64,000 nt of DNA from Escherichia coli (GTDB lineage: Bacteria > Pseudomonadota > Gammaproteobacteria > Enterobacterales > Enterobacteriaceae). Made by a program: the position numbers. Where the stretch lies: assembly GCF_013315695.1 (NCBI RefSeq), contig NZ_CP054353.1; one strand, written 5' to 3'. Positions 45,001-48,000 of this stretch are shown piece after piece. The number at the start of each line of letters is the position of its first letter. The stretch's first letter is position 1.

Positions 45001-48000
45001 TACGTGAAAAAAGACGTTACAGACTTTCAGGGGAAGCCGTGGGCTGGTGACTGGAAATATGTACCGACAAAAGAGGATTGTAACGACAGGCCGAACTATG
45101 AAATTCAGGCCTTATTCATCGGCCCGCCAGTCCCGGTGACATCAGAAGGACTGGTTAAAGCCGTGCGCTTTTATGAACAGGTAAAGCGTGAGAATCCGCC
45201 AGTCGAAACAGGAGCATGGAAGGATGCTGTTGACTGGGTGCTCAGAGAGGCCTGCTGCGCTGCCATTCTGGGTAAAGCCGACAATCCACCAGCATCCGGC
45301 AATCAGGTTAGCGAATTAACAATGTGGGTTAAACGACTGGTCAGTCAACTGAAAAAAGCTCAGCCGGACTGCAAATTACCGGAGAAGGCGATGGATTACC
45401 TGAAACGAAATGGACTGATAAGCGTGGAGGATGTTTTACGATGAATATTTAGACTAAAGAGTTTGTAACGCTATGTAAGTGATTTTTTCTGGTTTAGATA
45501 TTTATATGTCCGGCCAAATTGAGGTGTGTTTAAATGTTATTGCACATTGATTGTAGGGGGAATAATGAAAAACGCATTGCAGTTTTTGTTTGTTGCGTTC
45601 TGGTTGTTCGCATCATGTATGCCCATCATCTTCACAGCAAGGTATATGGAAAAAATTGATGTTTTGATATTAATGTTTGGACATATAAATGCCCTTTTTT
45701 TAGGGGTGTTCATGGCGGTCATGTGCATTGAATACTGGCGGTAAATACAGCGAACGCCATTGGTTTAGTTGGATATTTACTGTGCCGGACAAAAACGGTT
45801 TGCGGGGAAATCTTAGTTAAGTAGAATAACTGCGGGTGCTTGAGGCTATCTGTCTCAGGCATGAACACCAAAAGGCAGATAGAGAAAAGCCCCAGTTAAC
45901 ATTACGCGTCCTGCAAGACGCTTAACATTAATCTGAGGCCATATCTATGCGACACATAGAGATTAGCCTCTTACGGACCGAAAGGTCAAGGAGAAGCAGG
46001 CTATGAAGCAGCAAAAGGCGATGTTAATCGCCCTGATCGTCATCTGTTTAACCGTCATAGTGACGGCACTGGTAACGAGGAAAGACCTCTGCGAGGTACG
46101 AATCCGAACCGGCCAGACGGAGGTCGCTGTCTTCACAGCTTACGAACCTGAGGAGTAAGAGACCCGGCGAGGGAGAAATCCCTCGCCACCTCTGATGTGG
46201 CAGGCATTCTCAACGCACCCGCACTTAACCCGCTTCGGCGGGTTTTTGTTTTTATTTTCAACGCATTTGAAGTTCTGGACGGTGCCGGAATAGAATCAAA
46301 AATACTTAAGTAGCGCGCAGGGATAAGAGGGATGGTCCCTTAAAGGGGAGAGCTAATTATCCGGAAGGATTCTGATGATGAACATCGAAGAACTGCGTAA
46401 AATTTTTTGTGAAGATGGCCTCTATGCTGTGTGCGTTGAAAATGGAAATATTGTTAGTCATTACCGCATTGTGTGTTTGCAAAAAAATGGGGCTGCGTTA
46501 ATTAATTTTGTGGATGCCCGAGTGACGGACGGATTTATCTTGCGCGACGGTGAGTTTGTCACTTCATTACAGGTATTGAAAGAGATCGGAATAAAAGCTG
46601 GCTTTTCTGCTTTTTCAGAAGAATAAACTCATCTACAATCTTGCGCGGGGCTGAACTCCCGCTGAGTAACACCGTGCCACCGGAGAAAACCGATGGCACG
46701 CAACGCAAAATATTACAAACATGATAATTCGACCGTTCTTGCCCACACGCACGAGCGGTATTCTCACGCATTTAAGTCAGACTGGTACCAGCATCCCCCA
46801 TGCACTGAAGAACAGGCCGAATGGCTCATTCAGTGTTACCGCAGGCGCGGATGCGAGGTTAAAAAAGCCCTTAGCCTCGACTACCGTCACTGGATAATCT
46901 CCGTCAGGCTTCCTTACTCCGAACGCCCACCGCGTCTGTCCCGCACATTCCAGCAACGCATCTGGAGGTAACGTGCGGGTATTACTTCGACCTGTTCTGG
47001 TACCGGAACTCGGGCTGGTGATCGTTAAGCCGGGCAGTGAATCCATGCCGGTATTCCACAATACCCGGGTACTGGTGGAGCCGGAACCGAAAAGCATGCG
47101 TAATCTGCCGTCCGGGGTCGTTCCTGCCGTTCGCCAGCCGCTGGCGGAGGATAAATCATTACTGCCATTTTTCAGCGACGAACGAGTGATTCGTGCTGCT
47201 GGTGGCGCTGGCGCATTGTCTGACTGGTTACTGCGCCATGTTAAATCCTGCCAGTGGCCACACGGCGATTATCACCACAGTGAAACCGTCATTCACCGTT
47301 ATGGTACCGGCGCAATGGTGTTGTGCTGGCACTGCGACAACCAGCTGCGCGACCAGACCTCCGAATCACTCGGGCAACTTGCTCACCAAAACCTGTCTGC
47401 ATGGATGATTGACGTCATACGCCATGCAATGAATGGCTCGCAGGAACGGGAATTATCGCTGGCTGAATTATCCTGGTGGGCGGTCCGCAATCAGGTGGCG
47501 GACGCGCTACCGGAAGCGGTATTACGTCGTTCGCTGGGGTTGCGTGCGGAAAAAATCCGCTCAATGTACCGTGAAAGCGACATCGTACCGGGAGAGCAGA
47601 CCGCCACCAGCATACTGAAGCAGCGCACAAAAAATCTTGCGCCGCTGCCTCACGCCCACCAGCAAAACCCGCCACAGGAAGAGACGGTGGTCAGCATTGC
47701 CGTTGATCCTGAGTCTCCGGAATCTTTCATGAAACGACCTAAACGTCGCCGCTGGGTTAACGAGAAATACACACGCTGGGTGAAGACACAGCCGTGTGCG
47801 TGTTGTGGTAAGCCAGCCGACGATCCCCATCACCTGATTGGTCATGGTCAGGGCGGAATGGGGACAAAATCTCACGATATTTTCACGCTACCGCTGTGTC
47901 GGGAGCATCACAACGAGCTTCATGCGGATCCTCTGGCGTTCGAAGAAAAGCATGGTTCTCAGGTTGATTTAATTTTTCGTTTTCTTGATCACGCCTTTGC

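What the first reader, a model, noticed from the sequence alone, without database searches (positions are those of the whole stretch)
45830..46260. Hok-family type I toxin with leader region and terminator
A 51-aa Hok-family toxin ORF with a structured upstream leader (expected mok overlap and sok antisense RNA) and a clean terminator. Unlike Qin hokD, it is not downstream of relBE here, so it appears as a stand-alone type I toxin-antitoxin module.
Basis: partly seen in the sequence, partly recalled or inferred. Interest (0 to 1): 0.3.

Follow-up and report, generated by a model that had tools for sequence, protein, structure and literature searches.

The report
Intact prophage hokD/sok toxin-antitoxin locus
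This is a complete, already well-known type of small membrane-toxin gene (hok) with its antisense-RNA antidote (sok), sitting in a lambda-like prophage of E. coli; it is the undamaged version of the truncated hokD gene of the laboratory strain K-12, so the finding is correct but ordinary.

Summary
Window 46003-46158 (+) encodes a 51-aa Hok/Gef toxin (Pfam 1.2e-23), identical to the protein RefSeq calls HokD. Its 169-nt leader matches the Rfam hok/sok model (106.7 bits against a cut-off of 59). A stem-loop with a T-run terminator follows at 46227-46250.

All elements of the plasmid R1 model can be placed by sequence. These are the 5'/3' closing stem (tac/fbi), the anti-SD box (ucb), the mok SD, dcb, a 19-codon mok ORF whose TGA overlaps the hok ATG, and an antisense promoter and hairpin for a ~70-nt Sok RNA.

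The window holds no relBE. K-12 Qin hokD is near-identical only from 14 nt upstream of the ATG onward, so this is the intact form of that locus, at the same place upstream of rem in a Qin-like lambdoid prophage.

The 701-nt stretch containing the locus is ≥99% identical in 935 complete E. coli records. The locus is 91.5% identical to hokW-sokW of phage Sp5, an experimentally proven type I system. It is therefore already known and of low interest.

One side observation: a ~23-nt hypervariable cassette at the mok start, which is the Sok 5' end, defines many alleles. Its significance is untested.

The parts
45800..45827 (+). Predicted hok promoter: -35 TTGCGG (45800-45805), 16-nt spacer, -10 TAGAAT (45822-45827); +1 about 45834
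   Evidence: Read from the sequence. The block is conserved in the hokW locus of VT2-Sakai. The Rfam model starts at 45834. The simple promoter scan did not list it, because the -35 matches only 3 of 6.
45834..46250 (+). Predicted full-length hok mRNA (~417 nt)
   Evidence: Bounded by the Rfam leader hit and the terminator. Fold -167.7 kcal/mol, z -7.2. Conserved end to end in 66 distinct relatives.
45834..45845 (+). tac element (5' GGGUGCUUGAGG). It pairs with fbi in the full-length RNA, or with ucb in the leader alone.
   Evidence: MFE of the full-length RNA. RNAalifold columns 1-12 pair with 382-393, essentially invariant. The MFE of the leader alone has the tac/ucb stem.
45886..45895 (+). 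ucb / anti-SD box (AAGCCCCAG). It pairs either with tac or with the mok SD region.
   Evidence: Element definitions are from the R1 model as summarised in PMC9841398.
45935..45938 (+). mok Shine-Dalgarno (GAGG), 8 nt before the mok ATG
   Evidence: Invariant in 66 relatives. Pairs with ucb or with dcb GCCUC 45966-45970.
45947..46006 (+). mok leader ORF, 19 codons (MRHIEISLLRTERSRRSRL). Its TGA stop overlaps the hok ATG (ATGA).
   Evidence: Translation. The same architecture occurs in 16 of 66 distinct relatives; 47 have mok in frame with hok (70 aa) and 3 have a 68-aa out-of-frame mok.
45940..45962 (.). Hypervariable cassette: upper stem and loop of the mok-start hairpin (the Sok target) on the + strand, and the 5' end of Sok on the - strand
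   Evidence: Pairwise diversity is 0.30 here, against 0.016 at hok third-codon positions and 0.017-0.066 in the other non-coding parts of the transcript. 17 distinct cores occur among the 66 sequences and 21 among 194 matches, and all keep the hairpin shape.
45960..45989 (-). Predicted sok promoter: -35 TTGACC (reverse complement of 45984-45989), 18-nt spacer, -10 TAATCT (reverse complement of 45960-45965)
   Evidence: Sequence. Positionally homologous to the sokW -10 (TAACCT) that primers YO-421/422 destroy in the 'pro-less' construct. The simple scan did not list it, because the -10 matches 3 of 6.
45883..45953 (-). Predicted Sok antisense RNA (~70 nt): 5' tail complementary to the mok start, long hairpin, U-rich tail
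   Evidence: Fold of 45955->45880: -31.7 kcal/mol, z -5.3, a hairpin followed by CUUUUCUCUA. It lies inside the interval homologous to the fragment that supplied functional sokW in trans (primers YO-406/541). The ends are inferred, not mapped.
46003..46158 (+). hok (hokD-type) toxin gene, 51 aa; its own SD AGGAG is at 45989-45993
   Evidence: The protein is identical to RefSeq WP_000813254.1 'type I toxin-antitoxin system toxin HokD' and to K-12 HokD.
46166..46187 (+). 3'-UTR hairpin GGCGAGGGA/UCCCUCGCC, the candidate protective 3' stem of a processed (truncated) hok mRNA
   Evidence: Folds. The pair at columns 343:356 varies AU/GU/GC among relatives. The role is inferred from the R1 model.
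46209..46220 (+). fbi element (CUCAACGCACCC), complementary to the 5' end
   Evidence: (inverted repeat I5).
46227..46250 (+). Intrinsic terminator of the hok transcript
   Evidence: 7-bp stem, 5 GC pairs, loop of 4, then a T-run.

Best explanation
This is an intact hok/mok/sok type I toxin-antitoxin module of the hokD/hokW lineage. It is carried in the early-right (nin-like) region of a Qin-like lambdoid prophage, just upstream of rem.

Shown by sequence:
- a weak promoter (45800-45827) that would give a ~417-nt hok mRNA;
- a 5' end (tac) that pairs with the 3' fbi box, while ucb covers the mok SD. This is the closed, untranslatable form.

Inferred from the R1 model:
- slow 3' trimming back to the 46166-46187 hairpin frees tac to pair with ucb;
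- the mok SD is then exposed in the SD/dcb hairpin;
- ribosomes translating the 19-codon mok terminate on the ATGA overlap and start hok.

A ~70-nt Sok RNA, made from the minus-strand promoter inside mok, would pair with the mok start region. This would block mok and hence hok translation, and mark the duplex for RNase III. Hok is a membrane-depolarising peptide.

The most likely physiological role is inferred from hokW-sokW of Sp5. The module is silent in the lysogen. On prophage induction Sok is lost and Hok helps lysis and phage release. Prophage addiction is a secondary possibility.
For: - Pfam HOK_GEF 1.2e-23 and PHROG 251 at 2.8e-33.
- Rfam RF01794 at 106.7 bits over the whole model.
- The full-length fold has the tac/fbi closure and ucb/SD pairing, z -7.2.
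- The leader alone folds with the tac/ucb stem. The open form (tac/ucb plus SD/dcb) lies within 1.8 kcal/mol of the MFE.
- The mok ORF has an SD and an ATGA overlap with hok.
- The antisense hairpin with U tail has z -5.3.
- The locus is 91.5% identical over 95% of its length to the VT2-Sakai hokW-sokW locus.
- hokW-sokW was shown to be a toxin plus promoter-dependent RNA antitoxin, activated by mitomycin C in a RecA-dependent way and doubling phage yield (PMC8621323).
- The 701-nt stretch containing the locus is 100% identical in many complete E. coli genomes, which annotate it hokD.
- 66 distinct relatives keep all the elements. There are compensatory changes in the 5' hairpin (6 sequences) and the long hairpin (4 sequences, 3 pairs).
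- No IS element interrupts this copy.
Against: - There are no transcript or toxicity data for this copy.
- Both promoters fall below the simple consensus scan. The sok -10 matches only 3 of 6.
- The MFE of a 3'-truncated RNA does not by itself show the R1-type switch.
- Most long-range pairs are invariant, so they carry no covariation evidence.
- mok here is out of frame with hok, unlike the majority in-frame form. Coupling efficiency is therefore unknown.
- Chromosomal hok loci tested earlier did not mediate post-segregational killing (cited in bioRxiv 10.1101/2025.08.07.668861).
- NCBIfam Hok HMM scores are below their curated cut-offs (48.5 against 73).
Confidence: 0.88

Rival explanations
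1. The locus is structurally intact but physiologically silent. It is a passenger relic that is transcribed little or never translated, as has been argued for chromosomal hok loci. The out-of-frame 19-codon mok would be a frameshift that weakens coupling.
For: Chromosomal hokA, hokB and hokC loci did not give post-segregational killing or rifampicin activation (summarised). The window's mok differs from the majority in-frame arrangement by a -3 and a +1 indel. Both promoters match the consensus weakly.
Against: All regulatory elements are retained and no IS is present. The same allele occurs in 16 of 66 distinct sequences, and the 701-nt stretch containing the locus is ≥99% identical in 935 complete E. 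coli records. An ATGA stop/start overlap is a standard coupling arrangement. The close relative hokW-sokW is active (PMC8621323).
Confidence: 0.12
2. The molecular system is the same, but its main role is host or prophage defence rather than helping lysis. It would act through addiction (killing cells that lose the prophage) or through abortive infection against incoming lytic phages, as reported for R1 hok/sok against T4.
For: [quoted passage not shown] The hypervariable Sok/target cassette would fit selection for element-specific silencing.
Against: The only experimental data for this lineage (hokW) show a positive effect on phage release, not exclusion. hok loci are not enriched next to defence systems. 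Same-genome copies share an allele about as often as chance predicts (2 of 16 pairs against 1.8 expected).
Confidence: 0.3
3. The hok ORF is expressed mainly as part of the long early-right prophage transcript, as a moron read through from pR. In this reading the antisense RNA and the fold-back elements are secondary.
For: hok has the same orientation as the replication genes and Q. No terminator-like site was found on the + strand between about 42181 and the hok terminator. HokW production needs RecA and induction.
Against: A dedicated promoter with a conserved +1, and a 5' end exactly complementary to fbi, are conserved across relatives. That would be pointless without a discrete 5' end. Mutating the sokW promoter alone unleashes toxicity.
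Confidence: 0.15

Closest known systems
hokW-sokW of Sakai prophage 5 / phage VT2-Sakai (Takada et al. 2021, PMC8621323)
   Same: Lambdoid-prophage hok/sok. 91.5% nucleotide identity over 95% of the transcript. The hok promoter block, 5' end, 5' hairpin, long hairpin, mok SD, sok promoter position and hok SD are the same. Hok differs at 4 of 51 residues, read.
   Different: mokW is an in-frame 70-aa extension of hokW (annotated CDS), whereas here mok is a separate 19-codon ORF ending in ATGA. 10 of about 26 aligned columns differ in the mok-start/Sok 5' cassette. The C-terminus is FTAYEPEE here and FVDYESEK in HokW. VT2-Sakai lacks the AACCCGC...GCGGGTT terminator hairpin at the homologous place. 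The neighbouring genes are different.
hokD (relF) of the K-12 cryptic prophage Qin
   Same: Identical Hok protein. Only 3 nucleotide differences from 14 nt upstream of the ATG through the 3' UTR, terminator and the start of rem. The synteny is the same (hok-rem-ydfU/DUF968-Q; dicB/DicF/ydfC arm).
   Different: K-12 has relB-relE immediately upstream. It lacks the hok promoter, tac, ucb, mok SD and ORF, the Sok target and the -10 of the sok promoter. The window copy has them all.
hok/mok/sok (parB) of plasmid R1, the paradigm
   Same: Same set of elements in the same order: tac, ucb, mok SD, dcb, fbi, antisense promoter inside mok, 3' stem-loop (model summarised in PMC9841398; elements located).
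   Different: Prophage rather than plasmid. The toxin is distantly related (HokW is 44% identical to R1 Hok according to PMC8621323). From my own knowledge, R1 mok is long and overlaps most of hok in another frame, whereas here it is 19 codons. The long hairpin carries a 16-nt insertion relative to the Rfam consensus.

Membership tests
Hok/Gef toxin family (Pfam PF01848) | Protein of about 50 aa matching the HOK_GEF profile above its gathering score | tested here: met
   82.9 bits against a cut-off of 22, E 1.2e-23, profile positions 1-42 of 42. PHROG 251 at 2.8e-33. NCBIfam Hok subfamily and HokA HMMs hit but fall below their curated cut-offs.
[quoted passage not shown] | hok mRNA leader with the conserved sequence and structure (Rfam RF01794) | tested here: met
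   106.7 bits against a gathering score of 59, full model 1-157, + strand 45834-46005. The Rfam 'sok' model matches the sense (hok leader) strand, so this shows leader homology. It does not by itself show an antisense RNA.
[quoted passage not shown] | Long-range 5'-3' (tac/fbi) closure of the full-length mRNA, with an alternative tac/ucb pairing | tested here: met
   Present in the MFE and in the RNAalifold consensus of 66 sequences. The tac/ucb stem is the MFE of the leader alone. The pairs are invariant, so there is no covariation support. The MFE of a 3'-truncated RNA did not itself show the switch.
[quoted passage not shown] | mok leader ORF with its own SD, reaching the hok start (translational coupling) | tested here: met
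   GAGG 45935-45938; ATG 45947; 19 codons; TGA overlaps the hok ATG. This is a variant form: 47 of 66 relatives have mok in frame with hok. Coupling itself was not tested.
[quoted passage not shown] | Cis-encoded antisense Sok RNA with its own promoter, complementary to the mok translation-initiation region | tested here: inconclusive
   TTGACC-18-TAATCT lies on the minus strand, homologous to the experimentally mutated sokW -10. A hairpin plus U tail folds with z -5.3. The consensus scan did not call the promoter and no RNA data are available here.
[quoted passage not shown] | 3' processing to an active truncated mRNA; RNase III cleavage of the Sok duplex; toxicity when Sok is absent | not testable with these tools
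   Needs northern blots, a rifampicin chase and genetics. Shown for R1 and, for toxicity and antitoxicity, for hokW-sokW.
K-12-type hokD (third gene of the relBE operon) | hok immediately downstream of relE, with the leader replaced | tested here: not met
   No relB or relE in the window. The leader is present where K-12 has relE. Only 6 of 80 IMG/VR loci with the identical protein have a truncated leader.

The most novel reading that the evidence does not exclude
The ~23-nt cassette at the mok start, which is also the 5' tail of Sok (45940-45962), is a specificity module. It occurs as 17 distinct variants among the 66 aligned sequences and 21 among 194 scanned matches, within otherwise ~95%-identical loci. 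It is about 20-fold more diverse than synonymous sites of hok. Under this reading, each lambdoid prophage's Sok silences only its own hok, giving an RNA-level 'immunity type'. The window's allele would be a distinct class in which mok has become a separate 19-codon ORF.
Probability: 0.25. Interest if true: 0.4.

Novelty: already known. Interest (0 to 1): 0.12.

Why it matters
It matters little as a discovery. The gene is annotated as hokD in hundreds of RefSeq genomes, the leader is recognised by Rfam, and a 91.5%-identical sister locus (hokW-sokW) has been characterised experimentally.

It has two practical uses:
- It shows what the full hokD locus looks like before the relBE-associated rearrangement seen in K-12. 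This helps interpret K-12 hokD as a truncated derivative.
- The alignment of relatives exposes a sharply localised hypervariable Sok/target cassette and three different mok reading-frame arrangements. These argue that only the act of mok translation is under selection, not the Mok peptide. They also give a ready-made set of natural alleles for testing Sok specificity.

Tried and rejected
- **Promoter scan.** It found neither the hok nor the sok promoter, because each has a hexamer matching only 3 of 6. Promoter calls therefore rest on position and on homology to hokW/sokW.
- **Fold of a 3'-truncated mRNA, 45834-46190.** The MFE did not switch to tac/ucb plus SD/dcb. Only the isolated leader does, with the constrained open form within 1.8 kcal/mol of the MFE. 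The R1-type switch is compatible but not demonstrated.
- **Covariation on 66 relatives.** The sequences are too similar: 5 of 113 pairs have compensatory changes, and the long-range stems are invariant.
- **Do co-resident prophage copies avoid sharing a Sok/target allele?** Among 14 genomes with two or more IMG/VR contigs, 2 of 16 pairs share an allele, against 1.8 expected. There is no signal and the sample is too small to be decisive.
- **NCBIfam HMMs.** The hits are below the curated cut-offs.
- **Chance ORF plus hairpin.** Rejected on the E-values.
- **A second hok copy, or relBE elsewhere in the window.** None found.

Full report
**What is there**

The window region 45500-46600 contains a 51-aa ORF at 46003-46158 on the + strand. 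Its product matches Pfam HOK_GEF over the whole profile (E 1.2e-23, 82.9 bits against a cut-off of 22). It also matches PHROG 251 'MokW-like host killing' (2.8e-33).

A scan of the whole window against Rfam gives a full-length hit of RF01794 ('sok') at 45834-46005 on the + strand. The score is 106.7 bits against a gathering score of 59 (E 3.2e-23). That model ends on the hok AUG, so it describes the sense leader of hok mRNA.

A terminator (7-bp stem with 5 GC pairs, then TTTGTTTTTA) lies at 46227-46244. The 417-nt stretch 45834-46250 folds at -167.7 kcal/mol, 7.2 sd better than dinucleotide shuffles.

**Context**

The 701 nt around the locus are 100% identical to many complete E. coli genomes. 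935 records have a best match of ≥99% identity, and the gene is annotated 'type I toxin-antitoxin system toxin HokD', followed by rem.

The closest genome over 20 kb is strain AVS0196 (97% covered, 99.6% identical). It shows that the window is a lambdoid prophage next to mtfA/tRNA-Ser. The gene order is:
- integrase, exonuclease, ydfD, dicB, (DicF), ydfC;
- cI-like and cro-like regulators;
- ydaT and O/P-like replication genes;
- several small genes;
- hokD, rem, a small hypothetical gene, DUF968, rusA, Q;
- tRNAs, lysis genes and terminase.

This is the organisation of the K-12 cryptic prophage Qin. hok sits at the syntenic place upstream of rem.

**Relation to K-12 hokD**

I aligned the window with K-12. 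The two are identical except for 3 bases from window 45989 (14 nt before the hok ATG) through the 3' UTR, the terminator and the start of rem. Upstream of that point K-12 has the end of relE and no similarity.

tblastn finds no RelB or RelE in the 64-kb window (best E 0.85) and only one hok. This is a stand-alone module, and more precisely the intact form of the locus that is truncated in K-12.

Among 80 IMG/VR prophage loci encoding the identical protein, 74 have a full leader and 6 a truncated one. Four of the six are K-12-like. The other two have a different upstream sequence joined at the same breakpoint.

**Anatomy against the R1 model**

The model is summarised in PMC9841398. In the full-length RNA, tac pairs with fbi and ucb covers the mok SD. 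After 3' trimming, tac pairs with ucb and the mok SD pairs with dcb. The RNA then becomes translatable and accessible to Sok.

All elements can be placed here:

| Element | Coordinates | Sequence |
|---|---|---|
| tac | 45834-45845 | GGGUGCUUGAGG |
| ucb | 45886-45895 | AAGCCCCAG |
| mok SD | 45935-45938 | GAGG |
| dcb | 45966-45970 | GCCUC |
| fbi | 46209-46220 | CUCAACGCACCC |
| 3'-UTR hairpin | 46166-46187 | GGCGAGGGA/UCCCUCGCC |

The 3'-UTR hairpin could protect a trimmed RNA.

The folds give the following:
- The MFE of the full-length RNA contains tac/fbi and ucb/SD.
- The MFE of the leader alone contains tac/ucb.
- The fully open form (tac/ucb plus SD/dcb) lies within 1.8 kcal/mol of the leader MFE. 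It is the structure of the Rfam consensus.
- The MFE of an RNA cut at 46190 did not show the switch. The switch is therefore compatible with the sequence but not demonstrated.

**mok**

An ATG at 45947, 8 nt after GAGG, opens a 19-codon frame (MRHIEISLLRTERSRRSRL). Its TGA overlaps the hok ATG as ATGA. The ORF listing missed it only because of its 20-aa minimum.

**sok**

On the minus strand, TTGACC (reverse complement of 45984-45989), an 18-nt spacer and TAATCT (reverse complement of 45960-45965) form a promoter inside mok. Transcription from about 45953 would give a ~70-nt RNA. Its 5' tail is complementary to the mok start codon and spacer. The rest forms a long hairpin that includes the anti-SD, followed by CUUUUCUC (-31.7 kcal/mol, z -5.3).

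The simple consensus scan does not call this promoter, because the -10 matches 3 of 6. Support comes from the Sp5 hokW-sokW locus, which is 91.5% identical over 95% of the transcript and aligns base for base here:
- The published 'pro-less' mutation (primers YO-421/422) replaces exactly the homologous -10 (TAACCT) and makes the locus toxic.
- The fragment that supplies functional sokW in trans (primers YO-406/541) corresponds to window about 45855-46006.

The hok promoter block (TTGCGG-16-TAGAAT, +1 at 45834) is likewise conserved between the two loci.

**Function**

For hokW-sokW, Takada et al. showed several things:
- HokW is toxic and Sok-dependent repression operates, with partial dependence on RNase III and Hfq.
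- sokW RNA is lost and HokW appears in the inner membrane after mitomycin C, in a RecA-dependent way.
- Deleting the locus gives a two-fold lower phage yield.

By homology I take this as the most likely role here: silent in the lysogen, released on induction.

How Sok is lost is unknown. One inference is sense read-through from the early-right operon. hok has the same orientation as the replication genes and Q. No terminator-like site was found on the + strand between about 42181 and the hok terminator. Read-through could therefore occlude the convergent sok promoter.

Prophage addiction or exclusion of other phages remain possible (R1 data cited). So does physiological silence, as reported for other chromosomal hok loci.

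**Variation among relatives (side result)**

66 distinct full-length sequences encode the identical Hok and are 94% identical on average. Variation is concentrated in 45940-45962. This is the upper stem and loop of the mok-start hairpin, and also the Sok 5' end.

| Region | Pairwise diversity |
|---|---|
| Cassette 45940-45962 | 0.30 |
| hok third-codon positions | 0.016 |
| 5' hairpin, long hairpin and 45963-46002 | 0.017-0.055 |
| 3' UTR | 0.066 |
| mok SD (GAGGC) | 0 |

17 distinct cores occur in this set and 21 among 194 matches from a pattern scan. All keep a GAGGC/GCCUC lower stem, an upper stem containing the mok AUG, and a 5-9-nt loop.

The mok frame is not conserved:
- 47 sequences have mok in frame with hok. 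This gives a 70-aa product, which VT2-Sakai annotates as 'MokW-like'.
- 16 have the window's 19-codon form.
- 3 have a 68-aa out-of-frame mok.

This fits the view that translation through the region matters, rather than the Mok peptide.

I tested whether copies in one genome avoid sharing an allele. 2 of 16 same-genome pairs share one, against 1.8 expected. That is no evidence for avoidance, though the sample is small. I found no description of this cassette in the papers I read. The 2025-26 Hok survey states that it did not analyse Sok or mok.

**Verdict**

The finding and its interpretation are correct. The object is a known, widely distributed and RefSeq-annotated locus with an experimentally studied close homologue. 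Novelty: already known. Interest: low.

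Noticed in passing
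window 45940-45962 (and alignment A2 columns ~108-133): A hypervariable ~23-nt cassette at the mok start / Sok 5' end. Pairwise diversity is 0.30 against 0.016 at hok synonymous positions. 21 distinct cores occur among 194 prophage copies, and all keep the hairpin. This may be a Sok specificity determinant.
   Followed up: partly
window 45947-46006; alignment A2: Three different mok reading-frame arrangements occur among loci encoding the identical Hok: in-frame 70-aa fusion (47), separate 19-codon ORF with ATGA overlap (16, including the window), and 68-aa out-of-frame ORF (3).
   Followed up: yes
window 45779-45824 and 46279-46313: Two colinear short direct repeats flank the hok transcription unit: ACTGTGCCGGA...TAGTTAAGTAG and ACGGTGCCGGA...TACTTAAGTAG. 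The right copy overlaps a promoter-like site (TTGAAG-18-TAGAAT, 46267-46296) in front of rem. This could be a duplication scar of cassette insertion or duplicated promoters.
   Followed up: no
window 45526-45744 (+): An unannotated small hydrophobic ORF lies just upstream of hok (72 aa from GTG, 59 aa from the ATG at MKNALQ...). It has no Pfam, PHROG or NCBIfam match. The frame is open, with conservative substitutions, in about 30 of the related loci. It is a possible small membrane protein gene.
   Followed up: partly
window 46141-46144: The Tyr47 codon of hok is TAC followed by G, within UUACGAA. This resembles the tRNA-Arg anticodon loop that TadA edits. A recent preprint reports A-to-I recoding of this tyrosine to cysteine in hokD mRNA.
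   Followed up: no
window 50317-50506 (+): Rfam STnc100 sRNA, 132.4 bits (gathering 47), downstream of the Q antiterminator and the phage tRNAs.
   Followed up: no
window 38262-38313 (-): DicF sRNA (76.7 bits, full length) next to dicB/ydfC homologues. This confirms the Qin-like left arm of the prophage.
   Followed up: no
window 49368-49440 and 49544-49617 (+); 33747-33833 (+); 32683-32755 (-): Four tRNA genes. Two are phage-borne (Ile and Arg in the near-identical strain) just after Q. One tRNA-Ser lies at the prophage/mtfA junction and is the likely integration site.
   Followed up: no
L001 (E. coli 55989) 11200-11897; L034 1269 and 1432; L011/L055 upstream of 1501: Variants of the locus elsewhere. 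An IS1A lies about 240 nt upstream of the hok +1 in strain 55989. One prophage has a tandem duplication of the Sok-target segment carrying two different alleles before a single hok. A second kind of truncated leader shares K-12's breakpoint but has different upstream DNA.
   Followed up: no
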